From: an uncultured bacterium
GTDB taxonomy: Bacteria; Patescibacteriota; Minisyncoccia; Phycocordibacterales; UBA2100
DNA: 64,000 nt
Reading direction: 5' to 3'
Assembly (NCBI GenBank): GCA_903858755.1
Contig: CAIOKC010000029.1
Span: 1,059-65,058 of the forward strand
In this document: positions 5,611-58,133 of the stretch, in pieces
How the letters are laid out: each line of letters begins with the position of its first letter
Position numbering within the stretch: the stretch's first letter is position 1
Made by a program: the position numbers and the translations under genes
The notes under the pieces: model-generated
What the model was told of the DNA's origin: nothing
Databases searched by the model: none
The model's input: only the letters and a program-made list of their open reading frames with translations

Positions 5611-5633
5611 ACAAGTGAATAGGGTAGTACTGA

Positions 5634-24189: not shown

Positions 24190-25253
24190 AAGTAGTCGTG
24201 ATGCACCAGAATATGCGGATAGGCGGTATACAACGTCTGATTGCGGACGGTGTAAACGAAATGCACCGACGAGGCATTGAAGTGTGGGTGGTATTTTTTG
24301 AACCCGAGGAAGGGGGCTCTCTTGTGCCGACGCTCCATATCCCGCGAGACCATATCGTATATATCCCATACGGGCGCATGCGCGAAGCGCGACGCTTCTT
24401 CGTGCTTGTCCGTTTTCTGTACACGCTGAAGCCGGATGTACTCTTTACGCACCACTGGTTTGCTAATACGGTTGGGCGACTGGCAGGGTTGATTGCAGGA
24501 GTGCGAGTGATTCCCTTCGAACACAGCGATTATTCCTCACGCTATTCGCAGAAACAACTCTTGCTGGATCGAGCCTTGCAATCGATCTCTTCTCGTATAG
24601 TCGCGGTGTCGCAACCGGTACGAGATGCACTCATCTTGCGAGGTATACGGGGCAGTCGGATTGTTGTGATACCAAACGGGATCAGTCGGGAGCGTTTCGC
24701 GACGATACAAAAAAGGTCGCATCCCGTTTTCACGTTTTTGTTTATCGGAAGACTCATTCGCGATAAATGCGTTGCGGATATTCTGTATGCACTCGCGAGA
24801 GTGCCCCATGCCAGGCTTGTGGTCGTTGGTTCCGGGGAGGAGGAAGCTTCACTTCGCTCGCTTACGCAAACACTTCAGCTCACGGAGAGAGTTTCTTTTC
24901 TCGACGAGCGTCCCAATGTGGAAGATGAGCTGGCTGTCGTGGATTGCCTGGTGCTTCCATCGCGACGAGAAGGGTTCGGTCTCGTCGTGGTCGAGGCACT
25001 TGCCTCCGGCGTTCCCGCAATCGTGTCGGATACTGCGAATGCCTCCGGCGCAGTGAAAAATGGCGTGAATGGATTTGTGGTGCCTTCAGAGGATATCGAT
25101 GCACTTTCCGCAGCGATGGCGCGTATCGCCTCTCACGCAGAAGAACATAAGCTGCTTGCGGCGAGCGCTCGCGACAGTGTCGATCAGTTCTCAATTGAAA
25201 GGCATGTCGACCGCCTTCTTCTTTTGGCAGGAAACCGCGCGTGTCGGTATTGA
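24186..25253 (+). CDS. GT4 glycosyltransferase
   Basis: Start at ATG 24186 (MKVVVMHQNMRIGGIQR). REGFGLVVVEALASGVPAIVSD motif. Confidence 0.75.
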   Translation: MKVVVMHQNMRIGGIQRLIADGVNEMHRRGIEVWVVFFEPEEGGSLVPTLHIPRDHIVYIPYGRMREARRFFVLVRFLYTLKPDVLFTHHWFANTVGRLAGLIAGVRVIPFEHSDYSSRYSQKQLLLDRALQSISSRIVAVSQPVRDALILRGIRGSRIVVIPNGISRERFATIQKRSHPVFTFLFIGRLIRDKCVADILYALARVPHARLVVVGSGEEEASLRSLTQTLQLTERVSFLDERPNVEDELAVVDCLVLPSRREGFGLVVVEALASGVPAIVSDTANASGAVKNGVNGFVVPSEDIDALSAAMARIASHAEEHKLLAASARDSVDQFSIERHVDRLLLLAGNRACRY

Positions 25254-25277
25254 CGGAGGTGATACTTGTGTTATAAT
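25250..25277 (+). promoter_or_regulatory. Sigma70-type promoter candidate with extended -10
   Basis: TTGACG (25250-25255), 16-bp spacer, TGTTATAAT (25269-25277; TGn + perfect TATAAT). It is followed by GGAGAAAGGGGAG ~10 nt before ATG 25314. Confidence 0.5.
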
Positions 25278-25313
25278 GGAAATCGGCTAAACGGAGAAAG
25301 GGGAGTGTCGGTC

Positions 25314-26024
25314 ATGACCGATACGGAGTACTATCACAATCTTGCGGTCGCTCAGACCATGCTGCTCTCGGATACGAAGCCTCCGGGCACGTTTGACGCC
25401 CTGTACATTCCCGGTCTCAGCGTGGGAATGATCGAGTCAGGTAAATTGTTGCAGCATCTGTCGGAGCAGTACAGACGCTGTGGAAAACCTCTGATCGTGT
25501 TTAACGGCTCCGATGGAGAGCGCTTCTCGCACAATGAAGGAGGCGATCAAGATCGACCTATGGGCAAGGAGCCAGGTGCCGGCTGGTCTGGTAAATGGTA
25601 CTACTTTGAGCGACTGTGTGACCTTGGCGTGCCTCACTCTGCTCTGCAAATAACTGGACCTGGCTATCATACACGGCACGAAATGGCGCAGCTCGTCGCT
25701 GCCGCGAGGCAGTACGACTGGAAGTTGGTGGGCATTGTGACTGTCCCGTGGCATTACGCAAGCGTCTTTACAATGCTTGTGGATGCGATGAAGAAGAAAG
25801 ACCATTTCTTTGCCGCATATGCCATGCCGCCCGCGCATACTAATTGGCTGCAGCAAGGTATGGCGGGTTCGCAAGGACTCGAGAAAACGACTCCTGGCGC
25901 AGAAACGTCGAAGTATCTGGAAAAACTTGCCGGCTACCAAAAAGGCGGACGGGCATGTTCTTTCGGGGAGTTGTTCGATTACCTGCATCATCGGGAGGAT
26001 ATCGCGCGACAGGATGCCGCGTGA
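25314..26024 (+). CDS. DUF218/YdcF(ElyC)-like domain protein
   Basis: Start at ATG 25314 (MTDTEYYH) with an SD-like GGAG. GKPLIVFNGSDG...LVGIVTVPWHYASVF resembles the YdcF/ElyC envelope-biogenesis family. Weak. Confidence 0.4.
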   Translation: MTDTEYYHNLAVAQTMLLSDTKPPGTFDALYIPGLSVGMIESGKLLQHLSEQYRRCGKPLIVFNGSDGERFSHNEGGDQDRPMGKEPGAGWSGKWYYFERLCDLGVPHSALQITGPGYHTRHEMAQLVAAARQYDWKLVGIVTVPWHYASVFTMLVDAMKKKDHFFAAYAMPPAHTNWLQQGMAGSQGLEKTTPGAETSKYLEKLAGYQKGGRACSFGELFDYLHHREDIARQDAA

Positions 26025-26124
26025 TAATCCGCTACCGATCACGCAAGTCTTAAAAAGAGCCCGGCAGATCGCTGGGCTCTTTTATTGCACCTTACTGCGC
26101 ACAACGCTATGCTTGCGATACAGT

Positions 26125-27597
26125 ATGGATTTCATACGCGACGCGCGGCTGGCACTCAAGGCAGAATTCGCGCCCCTTCTCGTCGGGGTTATTTTTGTCG
26201 TTTATGCGGGTACATACCAACTCACCGATAGTCCTGCAATCTGGTATGACGAAGGTTTCTATACGCAGCTCGCGATGAATCTTGCAGAGGGGAGAGGGCA
26301 GGTGCTCCAAATCGCGCCTGAGACGTTTGTCTCCGCTGCCGGGGTGACGGCAGGGTATCCCCTCGTCGGGCCAGTCGCCCTCTCGTACCGCGTATTTGGG
26401 ACAGGCGTTCTTCAGGGTCGGATAGTGATGGTAATTTTTCTTGTGCTCTTCATAGGTGTCGTCTACGCGCTCGCTCGCGCGCTTTTTGGAATATGGGACG
26501 CACTTCTCGCGCTTGCGGTTATCGCAACATACCCTGTTTTATATGGCAATGGGAAGAGCGTGCTCGGAGAGGTCCCGGGTCTTTTTTTCTTGGTGCTTAC
26601 GCTTCTAGCTCTCGTATGGCTTGAGCGTAGCGATTGGCGCGATTGGCGTGCGTACGCGCTGACCGGGTGTGCGGCAGGAATGTGCGTCGCCACAAAACCA
26701 ATCTTTATCATGCTCGGTCCAGCGGGCATTATCCCCGTGCTTGTCGCGAGTCGTGTGCGTGCGCTTTCGCTGCGCGGCGTCCTGATCACTGTATCGACAT
26801 TTGCGATGCCAATCATTGCGTGGTTCTTCATGCAGTTCGGACCAGGAGATTCTCTTGCCTCCGTACTTTCATTTTATGCGAATCCGTATGAGTACACGAC
26901 GGTCGGCATCGCCCCCATGATGCTCTCAAATGCGTGGCGTTTCCTGACGGAGTTGAGTCCATTGTATACGCTGGCATTTATCGTGATGTGGGGCGCCGGT
27001 CTGTTCGCACGCGTGCACAAGAAAGAGAGAATCTCTGTAGCAGAGTGGGTCGCGCTTGCGTTCTCCCTTTTCGTTCTTTTCTTTTTCCTTCGTACTCCTG
27101 GATGGTATCGTTATTTTTTCCCCGCAACGATGATGGCACTTCTTTTTGCACCACGCGCGCTTCGCACGACGTTCGAGCTTGCTGCGAATCGTACTCGATT
27201 TTCAGGGTATGGCGCATGGGCAGCGGGGATGGTCGTTCTTGCACTCGCATCAATACAAATATACCAGCTTCGTTGGGATTCATGGGTCGCGAGCTATTAT
27301 GGAAGCACCCGTACCGAAGACGTGCAGGCATACCTTTCGTCGATTTCGCACTCGGAAATCGTCTTCCTCTACAATGTACCCGAAGTGGCGATATTGCTGC
27401 CTTCGCGCAACTATCACCAATACCTTATCCCTCATCCGGGGCAAATAATTGGTGGGGAGGAGCTCTCGCTGATCGAGAAAGGGGGAGCCGATCTCGTGAT
27501 TATCAATCGCGAGACCTATGAGAACAACACGGCGCCCTTTGCGAAGTACCGCGTTAGAGGTACAGTGAGCCGGTACGCAATCCTCGAATCCTTATGA
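26125..27597 (+). CDS. ArnT/PMT-like polytopic glycosyltransferase (GT39/GT83, undecaprenyl-phosphate-sugar-dependent)
   Basis: Start at ATG 26125 (MDFIRDARL). YDEGFYTQLAMNLAEGRG is the DE-x-x-Y motif after TM1, and ~11 TM helices follow, typical of ArnT / dolichyl-phosphate-mannose protein mannosyltransferases. Confidence 0.65.
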   Translation: MDFIRDARLALKAEFAPLLVGVIFVVYAGTYQLTDSPAIWYDEGFYTQLAMNLAEGRGQVLQIAPETFVSAAGVTAGYPLVGPVALSYRVFGTGVLQGRIVMVIFLVLFIGVVYALARALFGIWDALLALAVIATYPVLYGNGKSVLGEVPGLFFLVLTLLALVWLERSDWRDWRAYALTGCAAGMCVATKPIFIMLGPAGIIPVLVASRVRALSLRGVLITVSTFAMPIIAWFFMQFGPGDSLASVLSFYANPYEYTTVGIAPMMLSNAWRFLTELSPLYTLAFIVMWGAGLFARVHKKERISVAEWVALAFSLFVLFFFLRTPGWYRYFFPATMMALLFAPRALRTTFELAANRTRFSGYGAWAAGMVVLALASIQIYQLRWDSWVASYYGSTRTEDVQAYLSSISHSEIVFLYNVPEVAILLPSRNYHQYLIPHPGQIIGGEELSLIEKGGADLVIINRETYENNTAPFAKYRVRGTVSRYAILESL

Positions 27598-28544
27598 AAA
27601 AGCGACTCTTTTCGGTCGTCGTGCCAGTTTGCAACGAAGCGGATTCGCTTGAGCGACTCTATCGAGAGCTCTGCACAGTGTTTGAGAGTGTGCCGTACGA
27701 GCCGGAGTTTATCTTTGTTGACGACGGTTCGACGGATGCGAGCCCGCACATTCTGCAGCAACTCTCCGTCGGTGATACGCGAGTGAAATATATCCAATTT
27801 TCACGAAATTTTGGGAAAGAGGCGGCGACATCTGCGGGTCTCAGCTATGCGCGGGGCGACGCGGCGCTCATGATCGATGCCGATCTTCAGCATCCGCCGC
27901 AGCTTATACCGGAATTTATAGAGAAATGGGAAGAGGGTGCCGAGATTGTGGTGGGAATACGTCGACCCCGCGCGGCAGAAAGTTTCCTGCGCCGGACAGG
28001 TTCCCGCATGTTCACAGCAATCATGAATATGATTGGCGATTCGTATGCGCCGCAAGGATCGACTGATTTTCGCCTACTCGATGCTGCGATAATAAAAGCA
28101 TTTCGCGCTTTTACGGAACGGGGGCGAATGACCCGTGCGCTCATCGACTGGCTCGGTTTCAAGCGCGCTTACATACACTTTGATGCGGCGGAGCGCTCCG
28201 ATGGTTCCGCGCGCTATCGCTATGGAGGGCTTGCTCGTCTTGCTCTCACCACGATCGTCGCGCATAGCAGGCTGCCACTTCGTCTGGCGGGATATCTTGG
28301 CGCTCTCATCATCTTTCTTGCGGGTTGCCTCGGACTTTTCGTGATTATCGAGCAATTCATGCTCGGTGATCCGCTTCATATCGAGGTTTCCGGCACGGCG
28401 ATGCTCGCTATCATGATACTTTTTCTCAACGGCATCGTACTCGTCTCGCTCGGGCTGATGTCGCTCTATATAGGCACAATCCACGAAGAGACCATGCATC
28501 GCCCGCTGTTCGTCGTCAGGAGGATATTAAACATCGAGGAGTAG
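27594..28544 (+). CDS. Polyprenol-phosphate glycosyltransferase (GT2; ArnC/GtrB/DPM1-like)
   Basis: FSVVVPVCNEADSL...FIFVDDGSTD...MIDADLQHPP plus two C-terminal TM helices. ATGA overlap with the upstream ArnT-like gene. Confidence 0.8.
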   Translation: MKKRLFSVVVPVCNEADSLERLYRELCTVFESVPYEPEFIFVDDGSTDASPHILQQLSVGDTRVKYIQFSRNFGKEAATSAGLSYARGDAALMIDADLQHPPQLIPEFIEKWEEGAEIVVGIRRPRAAESFLRRTGSRMFTAIMNMIGDSYAPQGSTDFRLLDAAIIKAFRAFTERGRMTRALIDWLGFKRAYIHFDAAERSDGSARYRYGGLARLALTTIVAHSRLPLRLAGYLGALIIFLAGCLGLFVIIEQFMLGDPLHIEVSGTAMLAIMILFLNGIVLVSLGLMSLYIGTIHEETMHRPLFVVRRILNIEE

Positions 28545-28545
28545 T

Positions 28546-29802
28546 ATGAGGCGTGTCGCAGTGACGGCAGACGACTACGGACTCACTCGCGCAGTTACTG
28601 ATACGGTCTTGGAGGCGGTCGATTGTGGTGCGCTCACGCGCGTAAGTATTCTTGCGAATGGCTTTGTATTCGACTATGCAGTCGCGGAGTATATGAAACG
28701 TCAGGATAGGCTTGAGATTGGAGTGCACGTAAACCTTACTGAGGGGCGTCCGCTGACTCGCGCTCCATTACTCACGGACGCGAATGGCTTCTTTCGTTAT
28801 ACGCCGCAAGGTTTGCTTGCCGTCTACTTCTTTTCTTTTCCCGCCGCAAGAGCGGCAATCTATGCAGCGATACAGGCAGAGGTCGAGGCTCAGGTAGAGA
28901 AGGTGCAGACTGCGCTCGGCGGTCATGCGATTGCTGTCGATGGTCATCAGCATATCCACGTGATTCCCTTCGTCCTTGACGTTCTCCTAGACATGCATGC
29001 GCGCTCGCGCTTCGCGCACATCAGAATCCCTTATGAGCATTTTGCTCTTGTGTTTGGGAGGATCGGCGCGTATTTCGGTAAGGGAATGTTTCGTTTTCTC
29101 GCACTCAACGCATTGTCGCACCGTGCGAAAGAGCGCGTGCGTGCGGTAGGTATTCCTCATAACGATTCTTTCATCGGCACGCTTTTCAGTGGGAGGCTCT
29201 CGGTCGACGTTGTCGCTGAAGCGCTCGCGCTCTCGAGAGGGGTCGTCGAGATCGGGACGCATCCCGGCTCAGCAGACCGGCAAGAGCTCTCCGGCTGGAG
29301 CGGAGACGTCGCGTGGCACTATTCGCCGTGGCGGCAGTACGAACGCAACATGTTGGCATCCGCCGATTTCCGAGAAACGCTCGCCGCGTACGTGGCAGGT
29401 GGTCTCAGTCCGCGTACTGACGTACGACGTGTCGTTAAATTCGTTCTCTCAGGCACCGGCGCTGCTCTTGTGCATATCTCTATTCTATACATGCTGACCG
29501 AATACTTCGGACTCTGGTATATCGCCTCGGCGACCGTGGGGTGGATCATCGCGTTTTTTGTGAGTTTCGCGTTGCAGCGTTTCTGGACGTTTGGGGACCG
29601 CCCTTCGAGAGCTGGACACGTGTTGCAATACGGGCTACTTCAGGCGGGAAATATCGTTCTCAATGCTCTTGGTGTCGCAATTCTCACAGAGTACCTGAGT
29701 CTTTGGTATATTGCGTCTCAGGTCGTAGTGATTGGACTTGTCGCCGCATGGACGTACGCGGCATCATCACGCATTATTTTTGCACATGCCGCTGCGCGAT
29801 AG
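28546..29802 (+). CDS. Fusion: YdjC/ChbG/NaxD-family carbohydrate deacetylase + GtrA-like 4-TM domain
   Basis: The N-terminus MRRVAVTADDYGLTRAVTDTVLEAVDCGALTRVSILANG...GVHVNLTEGRP is the YdjC-family metal-dependent deacetylase signature. The C-terminus FVLSGTGAALVHISILYMLTEYFGLWYIAS...RFWTF is the GtrA family. Confidence 0.7.
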   Translation: MRRVAVTADDYGLTRAVTDTVLEAVDCGALTRVSILANGFVFDYAVAEYMKRQDRLEIGVHVNLTEGRPLTRAPLLTDANGFFRYTPQGLLAVYFFSFPAARAAIYAAIQAEVEAQVEKVQTALGGHAIAVDGHQHIHVIPFVLDVLLDMHARSRFAHIRIPYEHFALVFGRIGAYFGKGMFRFLALNALSHRAKERVRAVGIPHNDSFIGTLFSGRLSVDVVAEALALSRGVVEIGTHPGSADRQELSGWSGDVAWHYSPWRQYERNMLASADFRETLAAYVAGGLSPRTDVRRVVKFVLSGTGAALVHISILYMLTEYFGLWYIASATVGWIIAFFVSFALQRFWTFGDRPSRAGHVLQYGLLQAGNIVLNALGVAILTEYLSLWYIASQVVVIGLVAAWTYAASSRIIFAHAAAR

Positions 29803-29848
29803 TGTACTCGCGGCACGTTCGCCCACCTCATCGTATCGTACGAAAACC

Positions 29849-32041
29849 ATGAATATCCTTTATCTCGCAAATATCCGTTTCCCGACCGAGATGGCACACG
29901 GAGCGCAGATCGCAAAAGCATGCGAGGCGTTCGTGAAGAGCGGTCATACGGTCGAACTGGTCGTGCCAGAGCGTTTTACACCGATTATCGATGAGCCGCT
30001 TGCGTACTACGGCGTCCGTACGCCATTTCGCGTCACGAGGCTAAAAGTGCCCGATGTGGTACGGAAGTGGGGCCGTTTCGGCTTTGTTGCACAAATACTA
30101 CTCTTTGGCATCGCCGCCGCGCGTTATGCGAGGCATTTCAGGGCGGATATTGTATACGGTCGCGATGAGCATGTGCTTTGCATCTCACTTCTACTTGGAG
30201 TACGGAACGTCGTATGGGAATCTCATGATGGAGCATGGAACGCCTCGGCACGCTTCGTCGCGCGGCATGCTCGTAAGATGATAGTTGTTTCAGAAGGACA
30301 AAGGAGTGTGTACCTTGAACGTGGTATACCGGCGGAACGTATCATCGCCGTTCCGAATGGGGTGGATACGGAAGATTTCTCGCACGCTGAGTCGAAGAGT
30401 GAGGCACGAAATCGTCTCGGTCTCCCGCAGGATGTGTTTGTCGCGCTGTACGTCGGTGCGTTCCAAGGGTGGAAAGGTACGGACACCTTGTTTGAAGCGG
30501 CAGGACTTTTGCCGCAGGGAGCGAAAGTGGCCGCGATCGGCGGGCGTCCCAAGCAAATTCAGGAGATGAGAGGCAGGTATCCAAGCGTCCTTTTTCTGGG
30601 CGAGCGACCATATCGAGAACTGGCTGACAACCTTTCTGCGGCCGACATTTGCATTCTTCCCAACACGGGAAGAGATCCGGTCTCGGTGCGCTTCACTTCG
30701 CCGCTCAAACTTCTTGCATATATGGCTGCAGGCAAGCCAGTCGTCGCATCCGATTTGCCGAGCGTCCGGGAGCTTACGGGGGACGATGCGGCGCTTCTCG
30801 TCGCGCCGGACGATCCGAGTGCGCTTGCGGAAGGTATACAGCAGCTTGCTTCCGATGCGCCGCGCGCTGCGCGTTTGGCTACGCGTGCGCACGAGCGGGC
30901 ACTGTCGTTCGATTGGTCCATGCGAGCACGCCGTATCCTTACCCATATCGGGACATCTCAGGTCGTGCCGGTGCTTGCCATCTATCGGGGCAACATATCT
31001 GAAAATAGGGGAACCCCCATACGGGTACGAAGCATTCTTGAACGTCTCGCACGGGATCCCCGGTTCTCGCTCGTCGTTGCGTCGTGGGATGAGGCGCTGC
31101 CTTTTGCCAGCGAACATATAAAACTCTCGAATCACAAATTCTCGGATATGCGCGCACTTCTTAAGATAGTGCGAGAAAAGGACATATCCGTTGTCATGGG
31201 GCACACGATGGCGACGTGGTACTATCTGACGTTTCTCAAAATCTTCACGCGTGCGAAGATCGCGCTTGAAATGCATGGCTTTATTGAGGTCGAAGCGCGT
31301 TTCTATGGTTCTATAGGACCGATACGGTACTGGATAGAGAGGATCGTGTACAGGTGTTTTTATCCTCTGTGCGCTCTTATCACCACATGTAGTGAGAATG
31401 CGGCAGAAATCCTGAGCAGATGTAATGCACGCGTCGTACCAGTATACGGCGGAGTCGACACGGATCTTTTTAGTCCCGATGTCGCACCGGGAGACTTCTT
31501 CGCGCGTAGCTCCGAGGACGTAATTATCGGATATGCGGGGAATATGCGCAGATGGCAAGGAGTGCCGTTCCTTGTAGAGGCATTCGCACAGTTACGCACG
31601 AGCGATGCTTCCTTCAGACTCGTCATGCTCTCGAGCGAGGAGAAAGGATTGCCGACAGGAGATGGTATTGAAGTAGTCGGCGGAGTTTCGCACGAGAAAG
31701 TTCCGTCGTTTCTTTCGGCATGCGACATCCTTGTCGTGCCGCGAATGGTCGATGCGGTGAGTAGTATTTCTTTTCCCTCGAAGCTGCCGGAGTATATGGC
31801 GATGGGAAAGCCAGTCGTCGCGAGTGCGACCTCAGATGCCCATCGCGTCATCACGAGCGGAGTCGACGGATTCACGTTTCCTCCAAGCGATGCGTCGACG
31901 TTCATCTCTATCCTCAGGAGTCTCAAAGATCCTGCACTCCGTGAGCGTATCGGAGAAGCCGCTCGTGAGACAGCTGTGTCCCGCTTTTCATGGGACCGAC
32001 AGGCTGGTATAGTTGCGGAACGATTATTGCTAATTACATAG
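29849..32041 (+). CDS. Tandem double-GT4 glycosyltransferase
   Basis: Start at ATG 29849 (MNILYLANIRFPTEMAHGAQ). Two complete GT4 units: ~1-370 and ~380-730, the second starting VLAIYRGNISENRGTPIRV. Confidence 0.7.
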   Translation: MNILYLANIRFPTEMAHGAQIAKACEAFVKSGHTVELVVPERFTPIIDEPLAYYGVRTPFRVTRLKVPDVVRKWGRFGFVAQILLFGIAAARYARHFRADIVYGRDEHVLCISLLLGVRNVVWESHDGAWNASARFVARHARKMIVVSEGQRSVYLERGIPAERIIAVPNGVDTEDFSHAESKSEARNRLGLPQDVFVALYVGAFQGWKGTDTLFEAAGLLPQGAKVAAIGGRPKQIQEMRGRYPSVLFLGERPYRELADNLSAADICILPNTGRDPVSVRFTSPLKLLAYMAAGKPVVASDLPSVRELTGDDAALLVAPDDPSALAEGIQQLASDAPRAARLATRAHERALSFDWSMRARRILTHIGTSQVVPVLAIYRGNISENRGTPIRVRSILERLARDPRFSLVVASWDEALPFASEHIKLSNHKFSDMRALLKIVREKDISVVMGHTMATWYYLTFLKIFTRAKIALEMHGFIEVEARFYGSIGPIRYWIERIVYRCFYPLCALITTCSENAAEILSRCNARVVPVYGGVDTDLFSPDVAPGDFFARSSEDVIIGYAGNMRRWQGVPFLVEAFAQLRTSDASFRLVMLSSEEKGLPTGDGIEVVGGVSHEKVPSFLSACDILVVPRMVDAVSSISFPSKLPEYMAMGKPVVASATSDAHRVITSGVDGFTFPPSDASTFISILRSLKDPALRERIGEAARETAVSRFSWDRQAGIVAERLLLIT

Positions 32042-32045
32042 TCTC

Positions 32046-32636
32046 ATGTCGAAAGAGGATTGGGCGGAAAATACTGTACAAAAGATATTCCAACGAGCCA
32101 ACCTGTGGCCATGGAAGGACGATGAGATAGAGACGATCCTCGACGCGGCGTGCGGGCTTTCGCTCAAATCGAAGTTCATTCCTGCCAAGATCCGCGTTGG
32201 CATCGACATCTATCCCGAATATTTCAAGCATATTGAAGCTACTGTGCCGTACGTGGTGATGAAGGGGGATATTCGCAAGCTTCGCGAATACTTTGAACCG
32301 AAGTCGTTTGACCTCGTCTTGGTGCTCGATGTCGTGGAGCATTTGGTAAAGGAAGAATCTCTCGACATGCTAAGACAGGCGGAGGAGATCGCAAAGAAAG
32401 CAGTGATCATAGAGACGCCGCGCGGGTTTCTACCGACCAATATGGATATTCTCGGTCACGGCGGTCATGACGTGCAAACCCATCGATCTGGCTGGGAACC
32501 TGAGGAATTCGAGGAGCTCGGCTACAAGACGGTCGTCCGCGATTACACGCTCACGAATGTGCAGCGCCACACAGAGATCACCGATATCGATCCTCACATT
32601 CAGATGATAGATGCCATTAAGATCCTCGACCGGTAG
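32046..32636 (+). CDS. Class I SAM-dependent methyltransferase (small)
   Basis: ILDAACGLS (motif I-like) and FDLVLVLDVVEHL (motif II/III-like). 196 aa. Confidence 0.55.
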   Translation: MSKEDWAENTVQKIFQRANLWPWKDDEIETILDAACGLSLKSKFIPAKIRVGIDIYPEYFKHIEATVPYVVMKGDIRKLREYFEPKSFDLVLVLDVVEHLVKEESLDMLRQAEEIAKKAVIIETPRGFLPTNMDILGHGGHDVQTHRSGWEPEEFEELGYKTVVRDYTLTNVQRHTEITDIDPHIQMIDAIKILDR

Positions 32637-32648
32637 CGTATACGCGTC

Positions 32649-35907: not shown

Positions 35908-37060
35908 GGAGTTGCGCTATGCGCAGCGCGTTTTTCGAGGCGTCATGGAAGCGGCTGAACGTTGCAAGAGAATTTCTCACGAGCTTTTCACTATACGCAG
36001 AGTCGGCAATGACGCGTCGTATTTCGTCGCGGAGCTTCGCCGGGTCATAGCTTGTGACGACATGTGCGAATCCTTCGCGTTTTGCATACTGAGCCATGAA
36101 CGATTGTTCGGGTGCCTGTAGGACTATCGGTCGCCCTGCGAGGAGATATTCAGGCAATTTGCCGGGTACGGCAGTCAGTGTCACCACGGGACTTTCCCCA
36201 GGTCGCGCGAGTGGAATGAAAAGGATGTCGGCTTTTGTCTGAATGCGCGCCATCTCTTGAGGGGGGGCGCTTGCTAGCCGCACACTCTTGTTTGCGGCGA
36301 GCTTCTTCGCAAGTATCTCCGGTACGTGCCGCGGTACGTAGAGATCAGCCACGAGATCCGAAGTGTTGTGCACCGCTTGCGCTAGGCACAGCATGCTCTC
36401 TTCCTGAGCCCAATACACACTTCCGGTCGCAACGATGTGGTGGGGAGGGGCGTGCGGGGTTCTTCGTGTGCGCAGAGACTCGTATGGTTCTTGGAAGGAG
36501 CCGTTGTTTATGCAAAAGAATTTTTCTTTCATCCACGGGTATCGTCGGCAGTATTCTGTGTGGATTGCTTCGTTCGGGAAGATTGCAATGCTCGCATGTA
36601 TGAGGACTGCAGGTTCGATCAGCCATGAAAGAAGGTTCCACGCTGAGGGTAAGTGATTGCCCCGGTACATATCGAAGAAATGGAGCACAAGCGGTGTACG
36701 GGACATAATCGACAGGAGGCATCCGAGTGTGAGTCCTCCGCCAGTATCGCTGGTCGTGTATATAATCTCGGATTGCTCGTCTTGTACGAGGCGAAGACCG
36801 TATGCAACCGTGCGGACGCTGCTGACTGCTGCCGAAAGGACGCGCATCGAAGCGCTACTTCTTGGAAAGAAGCGATACGCGCAGGGAAGGACCGGTCCAG
36901 GCTCTGAGACTCTCATGACGCCCTCTCTGGTGTAGATTGCGTACATCCGCGCGTCAAACTGAGAGAAGAAATTGTAGAGGTGCTGTGCACTCCCGCCAGG
37001 GCGTGGCGGTGCCCAGGAAGAAACAATCAGGACTTTCTTACCGAGTGTCAGATGCGGCAT
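35852..37060 (-). CDS. GT4 glycosyltransferase
   Basis: Start at ATG 37058-37060 (MPHLTLGKKVLIVSSWAPP). Conserved C-terminal sequence GKLPEYLLAGRPIV. The tail overlaps fnlC by 56 nt, tail-to-tail. Confidence 0.6.
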   Translation of the reverse strand: MPHLTLGKKVLIVSSWAPPRPGGSAQHLYNFFSQFDARMYAIYTREGVMRVSEPGPVLPCAYRFFPRSSASMRVLSAAVSSVRTVAYGLRLVQDEQSEIIYTTSDTGGGLTLGCLLSIMSRTPLVLHFFDMYRGNHLPSAWNLLSWLIEPAVLIHASIAIFPNEAIHTEYCRRYPWMKEKFFCINNGSFQEPYESLRTRRTPHAPPHHIVATGSVYWAQEESMLCLAQAVHNTSDLVADLYVPRHVPEILAKKLAANKSVRLASAPPQEMARIQTKADILFIPLARPGESPVVTLTAVPGKLPEYLLAGRPIVLQAPEQSFMAQYAKREGFAHVVTSYDPAKLRDEIRRVIADSAYSEKLVRNSLATFSRFHDASKNALRIAQLLTALPTKRHAGRSQYNSR

Positions 37061-38354
37061 GTTCGAGAGAAGTATTTTTCCGGTGCAAGAGGTACCATTG
37101 GATAAGGCTGATGACAAAAGCTGAGAGATTCTCGATCGCTTTGCTCACGATGACCCCCCAGATTCCGATTACGGGAAGCAGTGCGATGAGCGCTCCGATA
37201 TGCAGCGCGTCAGGTACGACCGCCCAATACAACCACCCGGGTGGAATAGCGTGGAGTTTTGCTTGCAATGCGGTCGCCAGAAGCGAGGAGGGGAGGGTTA
37301 TGACAATAAGTGCGGCGAGCATTTGAGAGTAGTGTACCGAAGCGAGGTACTGTGGGAAGATGAAAGCATACAAAGCGGGGGATGCGACTGCGTAAACCAG
37401 TGTTATTGCGATGCCTAGAGCGGCAAGGAATGCCATGCGCCTGATAAGCATTCGATCAATCTCAATAAAGGATCGTTGTGCCATCTTCGGAAGTGCGAGC
37501 GTGGGAAGATTCTTTGAGAACAACGCGCGCATTTGTTCTGTCGGTGCGAGCGCAAAAGAGTAGATTGCGACCTGGATCGGACCAAGAAAATGAAATAGCA
37601 GAACGGTGTCTATGTAAGAGACTATTTGTCCAACGACTCCTATTACACTGAGATGCGCGCCGTATCCGATTGCGCTCGTGTCAAGCTCCGCATTAGGGGG
37701 GAATGTGCGCAAGGTCTTGCGCAAGAAATACAGGCGCAGGAGAGTTGGCGGGACAAAATACGCTAGCAGCAGAATCACCACATTAGTTGTGAGGAACATT
37801 GTCGCGATCAGGGAAAGTGCCGACCCGAGCTGTACGGCAACGAAGAAACGAATGGCCTGTCCAAATCGCCGCGTACTCTGCAGGTATGTGTTGTAGAGCC
37901 CGAGTGTCTCAACGAATGGGATGAACACTGCCGCGATTGCAAGCGCGGAAGCGAGTTGCATGTTGTCATTCCACGCGTAGTACGATGCGCCGGCAAGAGC
38001 ACCGACACTGCCGAGGATGCCCCAGAGGAGCCGTGCTCGAATTGCTGCGACGAATGTGCCTTCTGCGCCGCGGGCGATTGCCTGCGCCACATAGGTATTT
38101 ACCCCCGGGAGCGTTGTAATGCTGAGAATACCAACAATCGCGAGTGCAAATTTGTATGTGCCATAAACGTCTTTTGGCACCAGGTGTGAGAAAGCGACAG
38201 CGACCGCGAACACAGCAATTGTCGAGATTAACTGACCAAACGTGAGCCATGATCCTCCTTGCGCGAGGTACACCATGTCCGTTTTTGTATACTTCTCGCT
38301 CCGTCGCAGAGCCGAGACAGCGCGTTCCTTCAGTGACCTGAGCATTGGATACAT
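37038..38354 (-). CDS. wzx: Polysaccharide flippase, MOP/Wzx family
   Basis: 438 aa, ~12-14 TM helices with the typical Wzx layout. The precise start is uncertain (38354 or 38345). Confidence 0.6.
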   Translation of the reverse strand: MYPMLRSLKERAVSALRRSEKYTKTDMVYLAQGGSWLTFGQLISTIAVFAVAVAFSHLVPKDVYGTYKFALAIVGILSITTLPGVNTYVAQAIARGAEGTFVAAIRARLLWGILGSVGALAGASYYAWNDNMQLASALAIAAVFIPFVETLGLYNTYLQSTRRFGQAIRFFVAVQLGSALSLIATMFLTTNVVILLLAYFVPPTLLRLYFLRKTLRTFPPNAELDTSAIGYGAHLSVIGVVGQIVSYIDTVLLFHFLGPIQVAIYSFALAPTEQMRALFSKNLPTLALPKMAQRSFIEIDRMLIRRMAFLAALGIAITLVYAVASPALYAFIFPQYLASVHYSQMLAALIVITLPSSLLATALQAKLHAIPPGWLYWAVVPDALHIGALIALLPVIGIWGVIVSKAIENLSAFVISLIQWYLLHRKNTSLEHAASDTR

Positions 38355-38414
38355 AGTAGCCGCTCGATCTTTTAAGCGCTAGCACACCGATCTCGGTGTG
38401 GTAGCATACGCCCC

Positions 38415-40625
38415 ATGGCGACGCTCGAGAACATGCTGCGGTGGGTGGTGATTGCGTGCGCTTTCGCGCTTCCGTTTGTCGTGTTCATCATCTCCAACTC
38501 GCTCTTCTTCCCGTTCATCACGGGCAAGAATTTCACGTTTCGCATCGTCGTCGAGATCATGGCGGGCGCGTGGCTTTCGCTCGCGCTCGTCTATCCGAAG
38601 TACCGACCGACACGCTCGCTCATACTCGGCGTATTCACAGCGTTCGTCGCTCTCATCGCGCTTTCTGATGTGCTCGGCGTGCATCCGTTCAAGAGCTTCT
38701 GGAGCAATTATGAGCGCATGGATGGCTGGATCACGCTCGCGCATCTCGCGCTCTACCTTTTTGCCGCCGTATCCGTCCTCAATACGGAGAATCTATGGCG
38801 GCGACTCTGGCAGACGAGCATCGGCATATCCGCTACCCTTTCCGTCTACGGGCTTTTGCAGCTTGCCGGGATTCTCGCGTTCGGACAGAAGACCGGCACT
38901 GGTCTTGCTGCTCGCGTCGACGCGACCTTCGGCAACCCGATCTATCTCGCGGTCTACATGCTTTTCCATATCTTTATGGCATCGCTCCTCTGGGCGCAGG
39001 CGTGGCGCGAACGCGCACCGGGGAAACGAGCCATGATTTCATGGTGGTATGGCTCCGTCATCGTGCTCGATACCATCGTACTTTTTTTCACCGGGACGCG
39101 CGGCGCTATGCTCGGCTTGATCGGCGGCGCACTCTCTGCGATCGTGCTCTATGCCTTCGTCGCTGGTGGCGCCCGTATCCGCGGACTCGCGGTCGGGAGT
39201 CTCGTCGGCGTGGCGCTTCTCGGGGGAGCTCTGTGGTCCGCGCGCGATACGTCGCTCGTGAAGAGTGTCGGATTCCTCGATCGCCTGGCGTCGATATCGC
39301 TCTCGGACGCGACGGTGAAAGCGCGCTTCATCAACTGGTCGATCGCATGGCAAGGGGTGAAAGAGCGCCCGGTGTTCGGATGGGGGCAGGAAAATTACGC
39401 TATCGTCTTCGACAAGTACTACGATCCGCGCATGTACGAGCAGGAACCGTGGTTTGATCGCGTCCACAATATCGTTTTCGATTGGTGGATCGCCGGCGGT
39501 ACGCTCGGTCTCTTTGCGTATCTATCGATATTCGCGGCAGCGTTGTGGACGCTCTGGAGGAGTCAGGCGTTTTCGGTCGGAGAGAAAAGCATTCTCACCG
39601 GTCTGCTCGCGGGATACTTCACGCACAACTTCTTCGTATTCGACAACGTCACAAGCTATATCGCGTTTGGCATGCTTGTGGGGTACATCGTGTGGCACAC
39701 TCGCGGCTCGGGCGGTACATTCCTCGAGGATGTGCGCATACCCGAGGGAGCGCTGCCAGTCGTCGCCGCGTGTATCGTCGTCCTTACCTGGGGAGGCGCA
39801 TGGTATGCGAATGCGGGCGCGCTCGCGCAGAATCGCGCGCTCCTCTCATCGCTCGAGCCGCAAGAAGGAGGGTTGAAGAAGAATCTCGAGCTTCTGCAGA
39901 AATCGATTGCGTACGGGAGTTTCGGCACCCAGGAGGCGCGAGAGCAGCTCGCGCAGATCGCTTCTCGTGTCGCGACGATCGACGCGGATCTCCCGACCAA
40001 ACAGGCGTTTTTCGAGGCGGGTACGCGCGAGATGGCACTGCAAGCCGATGCGTCGCCGCTCGATGCGCGATTCCCGCTTTTCCTCGGACTCCTCTTCAAT
40101 TCATACGGCGACTACGCGGATGCGATGCCAGCGCTTGAGCGTGCCCGTGCTCTCTCACCGAAAAAGCAGTCGATCATCCTCCAGATGGCAGCGACCGCGG
40201 AAGCGCTCGGCGATACGGGTCGCAGCATCGCGCTTTTCAAGGAAGCGTACGAGCTCGACACCTCTTTTGCGGGCGTGCGGGTACTCTACGCGGCGGCGCT
40301 CGTGCGGGCGGCGCGCGACGCGGAAGCGGACATGATCCTTGCGCCGATCATCTCCTCCGGGGAAGCGGCGAATCAGCAGCTTCTCGCAGCGTATATGGCG
40401 CGAACGCAGTATGGGAAGATTAGTACGATCTGGGAGGCGTATGTGAAGACTCATCCGGCAGATGCTCAGGGGTTCCTCACGCTCGCGTCCGCCTACTACG
40501 CTTCCGGCGATTCAGAGAAAGCTGTGGCGACGCTCCGGCGCATAGACGCGCGCGATGCGGCGACGAAAGCGCAGGTCGAACAATTGATACAAGAAGTGCG
40601 CAGCGGGACCGCGCAGCTGCTATAA
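38415..40625 (+). CDS. O-antigen-ligase/polymerase (Wzy_C-type) membrane domain + C-terminal TPR repeats
   Basis: ~12 TM helices with a large periplasmic loop (GTRGAMLGLIGGAL... region) typical of WaaL/Wzy_C. The last ~300 aa are TPR-like helical repeats (YGDYADAMPALERARALSP...AYYASGDSEKAVATLRR). Confidence 0.6.
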   Translation: MATLENMLRWVVIACAFALPFVVFIISNSLFFPFITGKNFTFRIVVEIMAGAWLSLALVYPKYRPTRSLILGVFTAFVALIALSDVLGVHPFKSFWSNYERMDGWITLAHLALYLFAAVSVLNTENLWRRLWQTSIGISATLSVYGLLQLAGILAFGQKTGTGLAARVDATFGNPIYLAVYMLFHIFMASLLWAQAWRERAPGKRAMISWWYGSVIVLDTIVLFFTGTRGAMLGLIGGALSAIVLYAFVAGGARIRGLAVGSLVGVALLGGALWSARDTSLVKSVGFLDRLASISLSDATVKARFINWSIAWQGVKERPVFGWGQENYAIVFDKYYDPRMYEQEPWFDRVHNIVFDWWIAGGTLGLFAYLSIFAAALWTLWRSQAFSVGEKSILTGLLAGYFTHNFFVFDNVTSYIAFGMLVGYIVWHTRGSGGTFLEDVRIPEGALPVVAACIVVLTWGGAWYANAGALAQNRALLSSLEPQEGGLKKNLELLQKSIAYGSFGTQEAREQLAQIASRVATIDADLPTKQAFFEAGTREMALQADASPLDARFPLFLGLLFNSYGDYADAMPALERARALSPKKQSIILQMAATAEALGDTGRSIALFKEAYELDTSFAGVRVLYAAALVRAARDAEADMILAPIISSGEAANQQLLAAYMARTQYGKISTIWEAYVKTHPADAQGFLTLASAYYASGDSEKAVATLRRIDARDAATKAQVEQLIQEVRSGTAQLL

Positions 40626-44518: not shown

Positions 44519-44600
44519 GGGGGTAGATGCATAAGGATGATCTCAAGGATGATCACACGGAGGGTCTATAGAATGCGGCGCGGAGATTTGGTACAGTACG

Positions 44601-47034: not shown

Positions 47035-47436
47035 AAGGGGGAGATCGGACCCTTGCAGCATCTTTTCTCAAACTCTCGAGACGCAAAGACCTTCACAGGG
47101 GTCTTTTCGCCAATCCACTGCCGAGATATGCCGAGATACCTATGTAAATCGTATCTCGGATCGACTAATTCTCATATCGTCTCTTACAGATTCGAGCGAT
47201 TCTTCTGGGCAGCTACCACCACAGGTCCCGTATTCCGTGGCTTTTTTACCGACCCCCCAACCAAGGCTTACCATTGCGCCGCATCTAAGCCGTTTATCTG
47301 ATTTTCTTTCTGACCCCATCTTCTTTTACGATCCTAAATCTCCGCATTGTTCTTATCCCCATGTTTTTGCACCGGATATCAACACGATATCCCAAAAAAG
47401 ACCTAGAATACTAGATAAGTCGTGCATCCGAACATC

Positions 47437-56046: not shown

Positions 56047-56053
56047 CCTCCAC

Positions 56054-56793: not shown

Positions 56794-56805
56794 TATGGGA
56801 TACGT

Positions 56806-58130: not shown

Positions 58131-58133
58131 AAT

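What the first reader, a model, noticed from the sequence alone, without database searches (positions are those of the whole stretch)
26125..29802. ArnT-like / ArnC-like / YdjC(NaxD)-GtrA cassette: predicted undecaprenyl-phosphate aminosugar modification pathway
Three translationally coupled genes encode a polytopic ArnT/PMT-type transferase, a polyprenol-phosphate GT2 (ArnC/GtrB-like), and a YdjC-family deacetylase fused to a GtrA-like 4-TM domain. This is the same enzymatic logic as Francisella FlmF2-NaxD-FlmK: Und-P-HexNAc synthesis, deacetylation to Und-P-HexN, then transfer to an acceptor. Here the deacetylase is physically fused to the GtrA partner. The acceptor in this organism is unknown and could be a glycolipid, S-layer or cell-wall polymer.
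Basis: partly seen in the sequence, partly recalled or inferred. Interest (0 to 1): 0.6.

Follow-up and report, generated by a model that had tools for sequence, protein, structure and literature searches.

The report
Lipid-linked aminosugar cassette with fused deacetylase
Three coupled genes in a candidate-phyla-radiation bacterium look like a kit for putting a free-amine sugar on the cell surface through a lipid carrier; the logic is known from Francisella and Bordetella, but here the deacetylase is fused to the small GtrA membrane protein, an arrangement no paper in the searched library discusses.

Summary
Window 26125-29802 holds three tightly coupled + strand genes. They encode a 490-aa ArnT-fold GT-C transferase, a 316-aa GtrB/ArnC-type polyprenyl-phosphate GT2, and a 418-aa YdjC deacetylase fused to a four-helix GtrA domain. 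All five YdjC active-site residues are present and invariant in the 11 aligned fusion proteins. The organism is a Paceibacterota/Kaiserbacteria-like CPR bacterium, and the cassette sits inside a Wzx/Wzy-type glycan cluster.

GT-C, GT2 and YdjC(-GtrA) stay together in at least nine related CPR loci. The same modules occur as separate genes in five Gammaproteobacteria genomes and, by annotation, in Brucella. Other fusions also exist (GtrA-YdjC, GtrA-GT-C, GT-C+GT2, YdjC-GtrA-methyltransferase).

Most likely mechanism:
- The GT2 makes Und-P-HexNAc.
- The cytoplasmic YdjC domain removes the acetyl group.
- The GtrA domain passes Und-P-HexN outward.
- The GT-C transfers HexN to a surface glycopolymer or protein.

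The sugar, the lipid-linked substrate and the acceptor are inferred, not shown. The GT2's closest solved relative makes Und-P-glucose. The fusion forms a small family: about 48 clusters at 50% identity, and 4 of 185,579 species genomes. It is a new variant of a known kind, of moderate interest.

The parts
26053..26083 (+). Terminator-like hairpin (13-bp stem followed by UUUUAUU) ending the upstream gene. It marks the 5' boundary of the cassette's transcription unit.
   Evidence: -22.5 kcal/mol, z -5.37, 0 of 200 shuffles fold as well. The consensus scan did not list it. Function is inferred.
26125..27597 (+). GT-C fold polytopic glycosyltransferase (PMT_2 / GT39-GT83 type, ArnT-like), 490 aa. 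Proposed to transfer the sugar from the polyprenyl-phosphate carrier to an acceptor outside the membrane.
   Evidence: Pfam PMT_2 at 49.1 bits. AF2 model pLDDT 89.4, pTM 0.90. Best PDB fold match is ArnT 5f15/5ezm (E 5e-9, TM 0.62). W40, D42 and E43 (WYDEGFY, first loop) are invariant in 34 homologues. The 490-aa start is supported by independent gene calls.
27594..28544 (+). GtrB/ArnC-type polyprenyl-phosphate glycosyltransferase: GT2 GT-A domain plus C-terminal membrane helices, 316 aa. Proposed Und-P-HexNAc synthase.
   Evidence: Pfam GT2 at 112.7 bits. Full-length match to Synechocystis GtrB 5ekp (1e-65, residues 6-314), including the IDADLQ DXD motif. ArnC 2e-40, DPMS 1.6e-16. NCBIfam PgfS 222 bits (below cut-off 500) and ArnC 147 bits (below 529).
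28546..29802 (+). YdjC-GtrA fusion protein, 418 aa.
28552..29385 (+). YdjC (ChbG/HpnK/NaxD family) metal-dependent de-N-acetylase domain, residues 3-280. Predicted to be cytoplasmic.
   Evidence: Pfam E 7.9e-43. Fold matches 2i5i, 7vi8, 8jqe and 2e67 (target-normalised TM 0.68-0.80). D9, D10, H61, H134 and H239 equal kpChbG D10, D11, H61, H125 and H206 and are invariant. There is no signal peptide. Basic residues flank the cytoplasmic ends of the following helices (sequence).
29437..29781 (+). GtrA-like four-helix membrane domain, residues 298-412. Candidate Und-P-sugar flippase or lipid-presenting platform.
   Evidence: Pfam PF04138 E 1.7e-19. Four helices at 291-320, 325-347, 356-383 and 388-410 in the AF2 model. 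The whole-model fold search hits the Pyrococcus DPMS entry 5mlz (E 1.2e-5), presumably through its membrane domain.
29849..32041 (+). Context: double GT4 glycosyltransferase (730 aa) directly downstream. It is conserved next to the cassette in L006, L008 and L014.
32046..32636 (+). Context: SAM methyltransferase (196 aa) that travels with the double GT4. It is not the methyltransferase type that is fused to YdjC elsewhere.
37038..40625 (.). Context: Wzx-type flippase (37038-38354, - strand) and Wzy_C/O-antigen-ligase-like protein with TPR repeats (38415-40625, + strand). These are the candidate machinery that makes or attaches the acceptor glycan. Both also lie near the fusion in L003, L004 and L007.

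Best explanation
[quoted passage not shown] The proposed steps are below, each marked as shown or inferred.

1. The GT2 transfers a HexNAc from a UDP-sugar to undecaprenyl phosphate on the cytoplasmic face.
   - Shown: full-length similarity to GtrB, including the DXD motif.
   - Inferred: the identity of the sugar.
2. The N-terminal YdjC domain of the fusion sits in the cytoplasm, tethered to the membrane. It removes the acetyl group to give Und-P-HexN.
   - Shown: an intact active site and a topology that places the domain in the cytoplasm.
   - Inferred: the substrate.
3. The fused GtrA domain binds the polyprenyl-phosphate sugar. It either flips it or hands it to the outer leaflet, so that deacetylation is coupled to export.
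   - Inferred.
4. The ArnT-fold GT-C transfers the cationic aminosugar to an extracytoplasmic acceptor.
   - Inferred: since the organism is a CPR (Paceibacterota-like) bacterium, the acceptor is most likely the glycan made by the surrounding Wzx/Wzy-type cluster or a surface protein, not lipid A.
For: - Domains, motifs and folds of all four modules check out.
- The genes are translationally coupled.
- GT-C, GT2 and YdjC(-GtrA) are syntenic in L003/L011, L006, L008, L012, L014, L016 and L017. They are rearranged but still linked in L004 and L007.
- Alternative fusions link the modules:
  - reversed GtrA-YdjC next to a GT2 (P0013, P0167);
  - GtrA-GT-C (L073, P0247, P0261 and others) and GT-C+GT2 (P0194, P0216).
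- The same set occurs unfused as GT2-GtrA-YdjC-MT followed by a polytopic transferase in the Gammaproteobacteria locus L019. The order GT2-GtrA-YdjC recurs in L023, L024, L049 and L075.
- Of 63 YdjC loci from species-representative genomes, 35 have a GtrB-like GT2 within 1.5 kb.
- Topology: K/R residues cluster before helix 1, between helices 2 and 3, and after helix 4. By the positive-inside rule this puts YdjC in the cytoplasm, and both fusion orders give the same topology (sequence; helices).
- Published precedent:
  - lgmA, lgmB and lgmC are required for the GlcN modification of Bordetella lipid A (PMC4993483).
  - The Mtb PpgS/Rv3632/Rv3779 GalN pathway needs a deacetylation step (PMC9671496).
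  - GT-A/GtrA/GT-C systems are reviewed in PMC8035078.
Against: - The GT2's nearest solved relative, GtrB, makes Und-P-glucose (PMC4728340). No sequence feature tested here assigns a HexNAc donor.
- No equivalog model is met. PgfS, ArnC, HpnK and ChbG all score below their cut-offs.
- GtrA has never been shown biochemically to flip lipids (own knowledge).
- lgmD in Bordetella is not essential (PMC4993483).
- Related CPR loci (L016, L015, L017) carry an unfused YdjC with no GtrA nearby.
- The acceptor is unknown.
- Nothing here is experimental.
Confidence: 0.6

Rival explanations
1. Same pathway, but the GtrA domain is not a flippase. It would be a polyprenyl-phosphate-binding membrane platform that anchors YdjC (and, where the GT2 lacks helices, the GT2) and presents the lipid-linked sugar to them. 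Translocation would be done by another protein or occur unaided.
For: - The whole fusion model hits the Pyrococcus DPMS entry 5mlz, and the only part left unmatched by YdjC folds is the GtrA domain. Pfam names PF04138 'GtrA/DPMS, transmembrane domain'.
- In L008 and L012 the adjacent GT2 is only about 240 aa and matches profile positions 2-211 only, so it has no membrane helices.
- Mtb Rv3632 assists PpgS (PMC9671496). That Rv3632 is GtrA-like is from my own knowledge.
- lgmD is dispensable in Bordetella (PMC4993483).
- L016 has no GtrA.
Against: - GtrA-type proteins are genetically required for extracytoplasmic glycosylation in several systems and are generally regarded as the flippases (PMC8035078).
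- In the window the GT2 has its own membrane helices, so no anchor is needed for it.
Confidence: 0.3
2. The YdjC domain does not act on the GT2 product. The GT2/GtrA/GT-C trio would add a neutral hexose. The membrane-tethered deacetylase would trim an N-acetyl sugar of something else made by the cluster, such as the Und-PP-linked repeat unit or a glycolipid anchor.
For: - The GT2 is closest to the glucose-specific GtrB (PMC4728340).
- The cluster also makes N-acetylated 6-deoxy-amino sugars (CapE/F/G-like genes), which offers other N-acetyl substrates.
- Twenty-eight of the 63 YdjC loci have no GT2 neighbour.
Against: - YdjC pairs specifically with the polyprenyl-P GT2 across CPR, Gamma- and Alphaproteobacteria and Acidobacteria.
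- YdjC is fused to GtrA in two independent orders.
- Characterised YdjC enzymes genetically linked to a GT2 and an ArnT-like GT-C (LgmC, PMC4993483; NaxD, own knowledge) belong to lipid A aminosugar pathways. That they act on the Und-P-monosaccharide itself is from my own knowledge.
Confidence: 0.15
3. The mechanism is as in the best explanation, but the acceptor is a protein (S-layer protein or pilin) rather than a polysaccharide. The GT-C would act like a PMT-type protein O-glycosyltransferase.
For: - The GT-C hits PMT_2, and NCBI labels homologues 'glycosyltransferase family 39'.
- The GT2's best NCBIfam hit is PgfS. That PgfS belongs to a streptococcal protein-glycosylation system is from my own knowledge.
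- The Wzy_C family nearby also includes O-oligosaccharyltransferases (own knowledge).
Against: - The best structural match is ArnT, not PMT. Pmt1/2 align over only about 270 columns.
- The cassette is embedded among GT4s, Wzx and sugar-nucleotide genes typical of polysaccharide clusters.
- No MIR or other acceptor-peptide domain was found.
Confidence: 0.2
4. The deacetylase is an HpnK-type (hopanoid BHT-GlcNAc) or ChbG-type (chitobiose) enzyme unrelated to polyprenyl-phosphate sugars.
For: The best NCBIfam hits are HpnK (113 bits) and ChbG (82 bits). A protein with a squalene-hopene-cyclase-like repeat domain lies at 3820-5658.
Against: - Both scores are far below the curated cut-offs (232.6 and 227).
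- No HpnI/HpnJ or chb genes were found in the parts of the window that were scanned.
- The enzyme is fused to a GtrA membrane domain and flanked by a GT2 and a GT-C in every related locus.
Confidence: 0.02

Closest known systems
Bordetella LgmA-LgmB-LgmC(-LgmD) lipid A glucosamine modification, and Francisella FlmF2-NaxD-FlmK lipid A galactosamine modification
   Same: The enzymatic set is the same: an ArnC/GtrB-type GT2, a YdjC-family deacetylase and an ArnT-fold GT-C. lgmA, lgmB and lgmC are required for the GlcN modification (PMC4993483). The NaxD and FlmF2/FlmK details are from my own knowledge.
   Different: - Here the deacetylase is fused to a GtrA domain.
- The host is a CPR bacterium, and by general knowledge of that group it is not expected to have lipid A, so the acceptor must differ.
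- The cassette sits in a Wzx/Wzy glycan cluster.
Multi-component transmembrane glycosylation systems of Gram-positive bacteria (CsbB/GtcA/YfhO, GtlA/GtcA/GtlB, GacI/J/K/L) and phage/Shigella GtrA-GtrB-Gtr(type)
   Same: The architecture and membrane logic match: GT-A polyprenyl-P sugar synthase, GtrA-type small membrane protein and GT-C transferase (PMC8035078). The GT2 is a full-length match to GtrB.
   Different: Those systems transfer the sugar unchanged (Glc, Gal, GlcNAc). The word 'deacetyl' does not occur in the review. Here a YdjC deacetylase is inserted and fused to GtrA.
Mycobacterial/corynebacterial arabinogalactan GalN pathway (PpgS, Rv3632, Rv3779)
   Same: A polyprenyl-P-GalNAc synthase is helped by a small membrane protein, Rv3632 (GtrA-like by my own knowledge). 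A GT-C then transfers GalN to a cell-wall polysaccharide in an organism where lipid A is not the acceptor. A deacetylation step is required (PMC9671496).
   Different: In that pathway the flippase and deacetylase are 'as yet unidentified' (PMC9671496). Here the deacetylase is explicit and fused to the GtrA module. The window's GT2 matches the PpgS model only weakly (32.6 bits against a cut-off of 370).
Unfused gtrA / GT2 / chbG(YdjC) / arnT gene sets in Proteobacteria (Brucella abortus BAB2_0132-0135; Gammaproteobacteria MAG loci L019, L023, L024, L049, L075)
   Same: The same four modules are adjacent, and in the Gammaproteobacteria the order is GT2-GtrA-YdjC. The Brucella evidence is annotation names only (PMC10746212). 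The window's YdjC domain is 34% identical to that of L019.
   Different: - The genes are separate.
- The polytopic transferase in L019 is GtrII-like rather than PMT_2-like.
- A methyltransferase follows YdjC in four of the five loci (L019, L023, L024, L075).
- The GtrA parts are too diverged for BLASTP.
- I found no study of their function in the searches run here.

Membership tests
YdjC / ChbG-HpnK-NaxD deacetylase family (PF04794) | Profile match above the curated threshold | tested here: met
   147.7 bits against a cut-off of 29.7, profile positions 1-265 of 266
YdjC / ChbG-HpnK-NaxD deacetylase family (PF04794) | Active site: general base Asp, metal ligands Asp/His/His, general acid His (kpChbG D10, D11, H61, H125, H206; PMC9402603) | tested here: met
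   D9, D10, H61, H134 and H239 align to these residues and are invariant in 11 fusion proteins
YdjC / ChbG-HpnK-NaxD deacetylase family (PF04794) | YdjC alpha/beta barrel fold | tested here: met
   AF2 model pLDDT 86.2. Foldseek hits 2i5i (2.7e-13, target-normalised TM 0.78) and 7vi8 (0.79-0.80), plus 8jqe and 2e67
YdjC / ChbG-HpnK-NaxD deacetylase family (PF04794) | De-N-acetylase activity | not testable with these tools
   Needs an enzyme assay
NaxD/LgmC-type Und-P-HexNAc deacetylase pathway | Genetic linkage of YdjC with a polyprenyl-P GT2 and an ArnT-fold GT-C | tested here: met
   The genes are adjacent and coupled in the window. The linkage is conserved in at least nine CPR loci
NaxD/LgmC-type Und-P-HexNAc deacetylase pathway | Substrate is undecaprenyl-phosphate-GalNAc/GlcNAc | not testable with these tools
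   Inferred from the GtrA fusion, the predicted cytoplasmic topology and the GT2 linkage only
NaxD/LgmC-type Und-P-HexNAc deacetylase pathway | Acceptor is a lipid A phosphate | tested here: inconclusive
   GatB relatives place the organism in Paceibacterota/Kaiserbacteria. No lipid A genes were seen among the window ORFs that were scanned. The whole genome was not available. That CPR bacteria lack LPS is general knowledge, not tested here
HpnK (TIGR03473) and ChbG (NF002559) equivalogs | Score at or above the curated cut-off | tested here: not met
   HpnK 113.1 bits (cut-off 232.6); ChbG 82.2 bits (cut-off 227)
GtrA family (PF04138) | Profile match and four transmembrane helices | tested here: met
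   70.5 bits against a cut-off of 26.1, profile positions 1-117 of 117. Four helices in the model. The whole-model fold search hits the DPMS entry 5mlz at E 1.2e-5
GtrA family (PF04138) | Translocation of polyprenyl-P-sugar | not testable with these tools
   Not demonstrated biochemically for any GtrA, to my knowledge
GtrB-type polyprenyl-phosphate glycosyltransferase (GT2) | GT-A domain with DXD motif, juxtamembrane region and two C-terminal TM helices, aligned end to end with GtrB | tested here: met
   5ekp at 1e-65 over residues 6-314. The IDADLQ and DFRL motifs are conserved
ArnC (NF007986) and PgfS (NF047588) equivalogs | Score at or above the curated cut-off | tested here: not met
   ArnC 146.9 bits (cut-off 529); PgfS 222.4 bits (cut-off 500)
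GtrB-type polyprenyl-phosphate glycosyltransferase (GT2) | Donor sugar identity (HexNAc versus hexose) | not tested
   Sequences of characterised HexNAc-specific enzymes (GacI, CsbB, FlmF2, LgmA) could not be obtained. The PpgS model scores only 32.6 bits
GT-C fold, ArnT/PMT_2 type | Profile match, polytopic GT-C fold, acidic motif in the first extracytoplasmic loop | tested here: met
   PMT_2 at 49.1 bits against a cut-off of 26.1. Top fold hit is ArnT 5f15 at E 5.3e-9, TM 0.62. D42-E43 are invariant in 34 sequences
ArnT proper (L-Ara4N transfer to lipid A) | Sequence-level orthology and a lipid A acceptor | tested here: not met
   There is no PDB sequence hit to ArnT even at E<=1 and no NCBIfam hit. 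Identity in the structural alignment is 14%

The most novel reading that the evidence does not exclude
The YdjC-GtrA fusion is a channelling device. The GtrA domain binds the polyprenyl-phosphate-HexNAc made by the GT2, presents it to the tethered deacetylase, and releases only the deacetylated, cationic product to the outer leaflet. In relatives with a third methyltransferase domain it would release a methylated product.

This would make GtrA a substrate-handling platform for cytoplasmic tailoring enzymes. It would also define a widespread, unstudied family of 'tailored Und-P-sugar' decoration systems in CPR bacteria and Proteobacteria.
Probability: 0.25. Interest if true: 0.65.

Novelty: new variant of a known kind. 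Interest (0 to 1): 0.45.

Why it matters
- **A test system for GtrA.** The role of GtrA proteins is still assumed rather than shown. A natural fusion to an enzyme with an assayable reaction gives a single polypeptide in which lipid binding, deacetylation and translocation can be tested together.
- **A lead for other pathways.** It offers a model for the unidentified deacetylase and flippase steps of other polyprenyl-P-aminosugar pathways, such as the mycobacterial arabinogalactan GalN pathway (PMC9671496).
- **CPR surfaces.** It predicts that some CPR bacteria, which live attached to host cells, display free-amine sugars on their surface glycans. That could affect charge, attachment and resistance to cationic peptides.
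- **Limits.** The pathway logic itself is already known from Francisella and Bordetella, so this is an extension, not a new principle.

Tried and rejected
- **PDB sequence search with the GT-C.** It returned only a spurious hit to a designed TIM barrel. The fold search was needed instead.
- **Promoter and terminator consensus scan of 25200-32700.** Counts were no higher than in shuffles. The hairpin upstream of the GT-C gene was found by eye and folded separately.
- **Rfam and tRNA scans.** They found only two tRNAs, far from the cassette.
- **Organism name.** Neither the cluster look-up nor the contig look-up gave a name, and one look-up returned no DNA. Lineage was inferred from GatB relatives instead.
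- **AFDB fold search for fusion relatives.** The library was unavailable.
- **Literature searches.** No paper holds both 'YdjC' and 'GtrA'. The only paper holding GtrA together with NaxD, HpnK, ChbG or LgmC in this sense was a Brucella gene table.
- **The window's methyltransferase (32046-32636).** I tested whether it is the type fused to YdjC elsewhere. It is not; it belongs to a group that travels with the double GT4.
- **HpnK/hopanoid and ChbG/chitobiose readings.** Both were rejected on curated cut-offs and context.
- **Donor-sugar assignment from GT2 similarity.** This was abandoned. The window's GT2 is about as similar to the glucose-specific GtrB as to YdjC-partnered GT2s from other phyla.

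Full report
**1. Observation**

| Gene | Coordinates | Length | Pfam result |
|---|---|---|---|
| GT-C | 26125-27597 | 490 aa | PMT_2, 49.1 bits (cut-off 26.1) |
| GT2 | 27594-28544 | 316 aa | Glycos_transf_2, 112.7 bits |
| Fusion | 28546-29802 | 418 aa | YdjC, residues 3-280, E 7.9e-43; GtrA/DPMS_TM, residues 298-412, E 1.7e-19 |

- The genes are coupled. The first junction is ATGA. At the second, the stop TAG is followed by one base and then ATG, with GAGGAG just upstream.
- The mechanical ORF for the first gene begins at a TTG at 25810. Independent gene calls give the 490-aa product that starts at 26125.
- A 13-bp hairpin at 26053-26083 (-22.5 kcal/mol, z -5.4), followed by UUUUAUU, ends the upstream gene.
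- The identical fusion protein is called on separate ENA assemblies, so the fusion is not an assembly artefact.

**2. The parts**

*YdjC domain*
- It aligns with K. pneumoniae ChbG (7vi8) and EF3048 (2i5i).
- The published ChbG active site is D10 (base), D11/H61/H125 (zinc ligands) and H206 (acid) (PMC9402603). These map to D9, D10, H61, H134 and H239 of the fusion.
- All five are invariant in the 11 aligned fusion proteins.
- The AF2 model (pLDDT 86.2, pTM 0.74) matches YdjC structures with target-normalised TM scores of 0.68-0.80.
- The whole-model search also hits the Pyrococcus dolichol-P-mannose synthase entry 5mlz (E 1.2e-5). I attribute this to the C-terminal four-helix bundle, the only part not covered by the YdjC matches.

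*GT2*
- It aligns end to end with Synechocystis GtrB (5ekp, 1e-65), including the DXD motif and the C-terminal membrane helices.
- Matches to ArnC (2e-40) and DPMS (1.6e-16) are weaker. The second refutation test also does not refute.
- GtrB makes Und-P-glucose (PMC4728340).
- The NCBIfam equivalogs PgfS, ArnC and PpgS all score below their cut-offs.
- The donor sugar therefore cannot be read from the sequence.

*GT-C*
- It has no PDB hit by sequence.
- Its AF2 model (pLDDT 89.4, pTM 0.90) is closest to ArnT (5f15, E 5e-9, TM 0.62), ahead of ALG9, the oligosaccharyltransferase STT3 subunits, AftA and PMT.
- The first-loop motif W40-x-D42-E43 is invariant in 34 homologues.

**3. Topology (read from the sequence)**

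- The fusion has no signal peptide. It starts directly with the strand that carries the catalytic Asp-Asp pair.
- Basic residues cluster before helix 1 (RTDVRRVVK), between helices 2 and 3 (QRFWTFGDRPSRAG) and after helix 4 (SSRIIFAHAAAR).
- The 1-2 and 3-4 loops (TEYFGLW, TEYLSLW) carry no basic residues.
- By the positive-inside rule both termini of the GtrA domain are cytoplasmic, and so is the YdjC domain.
- The reversed fusions (GtrA then YdjC) give the same topology. So do the triple fusions, in which a methyltransferase follows helix 4.

**4. Context and organism**

- The cassette lies in a long + strand run of glycan genes:
  - several GT4s, a GT2 and an epimerase upstream;
  - a double GT4, a methyltransferase and a CapE/F/G-like trio downstream;
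  - then a Wzx-type flippase and a Wzy_C-TPR protein.
- MurC/MurD-like ligases, SecA and GatB are also in the window.
- Named GatB relatives at 66-67% identity are Paceibacterota and Kaiserbacteria.
- Homologues of all three cassette proteins carry names such as Nomurabacteria, Pacebacteria, Kaiserbacteria and Parcubacteria.
- This is a CPR bacterium with peptidoglycan. Lipid A is therefore an unlikely acceptor. That step rests on general knowledge of the group; the whole genome was not checked.

**5. Comparative evidence that the modules work together**

*Synteny*
- The order GT-C, GT2, YdjC-GtrA recurs in L003/L011, L006, L008, L012 and L014.
- L007 has GT2, fusion, GT-C and an extra GtrA. 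L004 has GT-C and the fusion, with the GT2 3 kb away.
- L016 has the same order (GT-C, GT2, YdjC) with an unfused YdjC and no GtrA nearby. L015 and L017 also carry an unfused YdjC, with the GT2 after it.

*Other fusions*
- A reversed GtrA-YdjC protein sits next to a GT2 in a marine contig (P0013). P0167 has the same order.
- GtrA-GT-C proteins (L073, P0247, P0261 and others) and GT-C+GT2 proteins (P0194, P0216) also exist.

*Unfused equivalents*
- Gammaproteobacteria MAG L019 encodes GT2, GtrA (PF04138, 1.2e-20), YdjC (1.2e-72), a methyltransferase and a polytopic GtrII-like protein in a row.
- L023, L024, L049 and L075 repeat the GT2-GtrA-YdjC order.
- A Brucella abortus table lists gtrA-wcaA-chbG-arnT as BAB2_0132-0135 (PMC10746212).

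*Frequencies*
- Of 63 YdjC loci from species-representative genomes, 35 have a GtrB-like GT2 within 1.5 kb, 10 have a GtrA, and 4 are fusions.
- The profile search over 1.84 billion representative proteins lists about 48 full-length YdjC-GtrA clusters among its best 150 hits. Five of them carry a third, methyltransferase domain.
- Only 4 of 185,579 species genomes hold a full fusion, and all four are Patescibacteria.

**6. Mechanism**

The best-supported reading is a GT-A/GtrA/GT-C transmembrane glycosylation system (PMC8035078) with an in-line deacetylase.

1. The GT2 makes Und-P-HexNAc.
2. The cytoplasmic YdjC domain converts it to Und-P-HexN.
3. The fused GtrA domain flips it or passes it on.
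4. The GT-C transfers HexN to an outside acceptor.

Shown: the domains, the active sites, the folds, the gene coupling and the conserved linkage. Topology is predicted from the sequence. Inferred: the sugar, the lipid-linked substrate, the role of GtrA and the acceptor.

The main internal alternative is that GtrA is a lipid-binding platform rather than a flippase. Four observations favour this:
- the fold-search hit to the DPMS entry 5mlz;
- the helix-less GT2s next to the fusion in L008 and L012;
- the help that Rv3632 gives PpgS (PMC9671496);
- the dispensability of lgmD (PMC4993483).

**7. Comparison with what is known**

- The enzymatic logic matches Bordetella LgmABC and Francisella FlmF2/NaxD/FlmK (PMC4993483; own knowledge for Francisella).
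- It also resembles the mycobacterial GalN pathway, whose deacetylase and flippase are unidentified (PMC9671496).
- The cassette differs in the YdjC-GtrA fusion, in its CPR host and in its glycan-cluster context.
- No paper in the searched library holds both 'YdjC' and 'GtrA'. Annotation pipelines already label the two halves; JGI, for example, uses 'ChbG.../putative flippase GtrA'.

**8. Verdict**

It is a new variant of a known kind and of moderate interest.

The recurrent methyltransferase partner in relatives is the most novel lead, but it is absent from this window's cassette.

Noticed in passing
P0046, P0059, P0068, P0074, P0075 (triple fusions); P0085, P0086, P0151, P0098; L003 9341-9967; L004 9271-10065; L006 7288-7977; L019 6681-7550: This YdjC subfamily is repeatedly fused to, or directly followed by, a SAM methyltransferase. 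At least three different methyltransferase types are involved, including FkbM/RfbT-like ones. This suggests that the lipid-linked aminosugar is also methylated (N- or O-) in many relatives. The window has no such methyltransferase next to the fusion.
   Followed up: partly
L008 5286-6008 and L012 5279-5995: The GT2 next to the fusion is only about 240 aa and matches positions 2-211 of the PgfS/ArnC profiles, so it lacks the membrane helices. The GtrA domain of the fusion may act as its membrane partner, as Rv3632 does for PpgS.
   Followed up: partly
L016 3581-6816 (Kaiserbacteria MAG), L015, L017: Close CPR relatives carry GT-C, GT2 and an unfused YdjC, with no GtrA within the 12.8 kb held for L016. 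The GtrA part is therefore not always linked.
   Followed up: partly
L019 3736-9070 (Gammaproteobacteria MAG); also L023, L024, L049, L075: An unfused cassette: divergent methyltransferase, then GT2, GtrA, YdjC, methyltransferase and a polytopic GtrII-like protein. I found no study of it in the searches run here.
   Followed up: partly
window 29849-32041 and 32046-32636: A 730-aa protein made of two GT4 units, followed by a 196-aa methyltransferase. The pair is conserved together (57-71% identity) in L006, L008 and L014, downstream of the fusion (in L006 and L008 with other genes in between).
   Followed up: partly
window 20420-22381: A 653-aa ORF joins a GT4 domain to partial UDP-glucose/GDP-mannose dehydrogenase domains: the N domain from profile position 71, plus the central domain. 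It could be a real fusion or a decayed dehydrogenase.
   Followed up: no
window 32649-35907: A CapE/CapF/CapG-like trio (Polysacc_synt_2 with C-terminal domain; epimerase with Polysacc_synt_C; UDP-GlcNAc 2-epimerase). This is typical of UDP-6-deoxy-HexNAc (L-FucNAc-type) synthesis.
   Followed up: no
window 43824-44546 (-) and 52275-52952 (+): Two IS200/Y1-transposase-like ORFs (225-240 aa) lie on either side of the stretch holding GatB, an HTH protein and a 1605-aa ORF.
   Followed up: no
window 47422-52239 and 52954-56046: A 1605-aa ORF has no Pfam hit and lies in a GC-rich (0.61) stretch with negative GC skew. It is followed by a 1030-aa SPRY + DUF7483 protein and seven further ORFs (55856-63701) with no Pfam hit.
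   Followed up: no
window 3820-5658 (-), 13346-15205, 15144-16622: A protein with a squalene-hopene-cyclase-like C-terminal repeat domain, a VirD4/TraG-like coupling protein, and a lamin-tail + PKD domain protein.
   Followed up: no
window 25266-26024: The gene just upstream of the cassette (236 aa by independent gene calls) has no Pfam or NCBIfam hit. It ends at the strong hairpin at 26053-26083.
   Followed up: no
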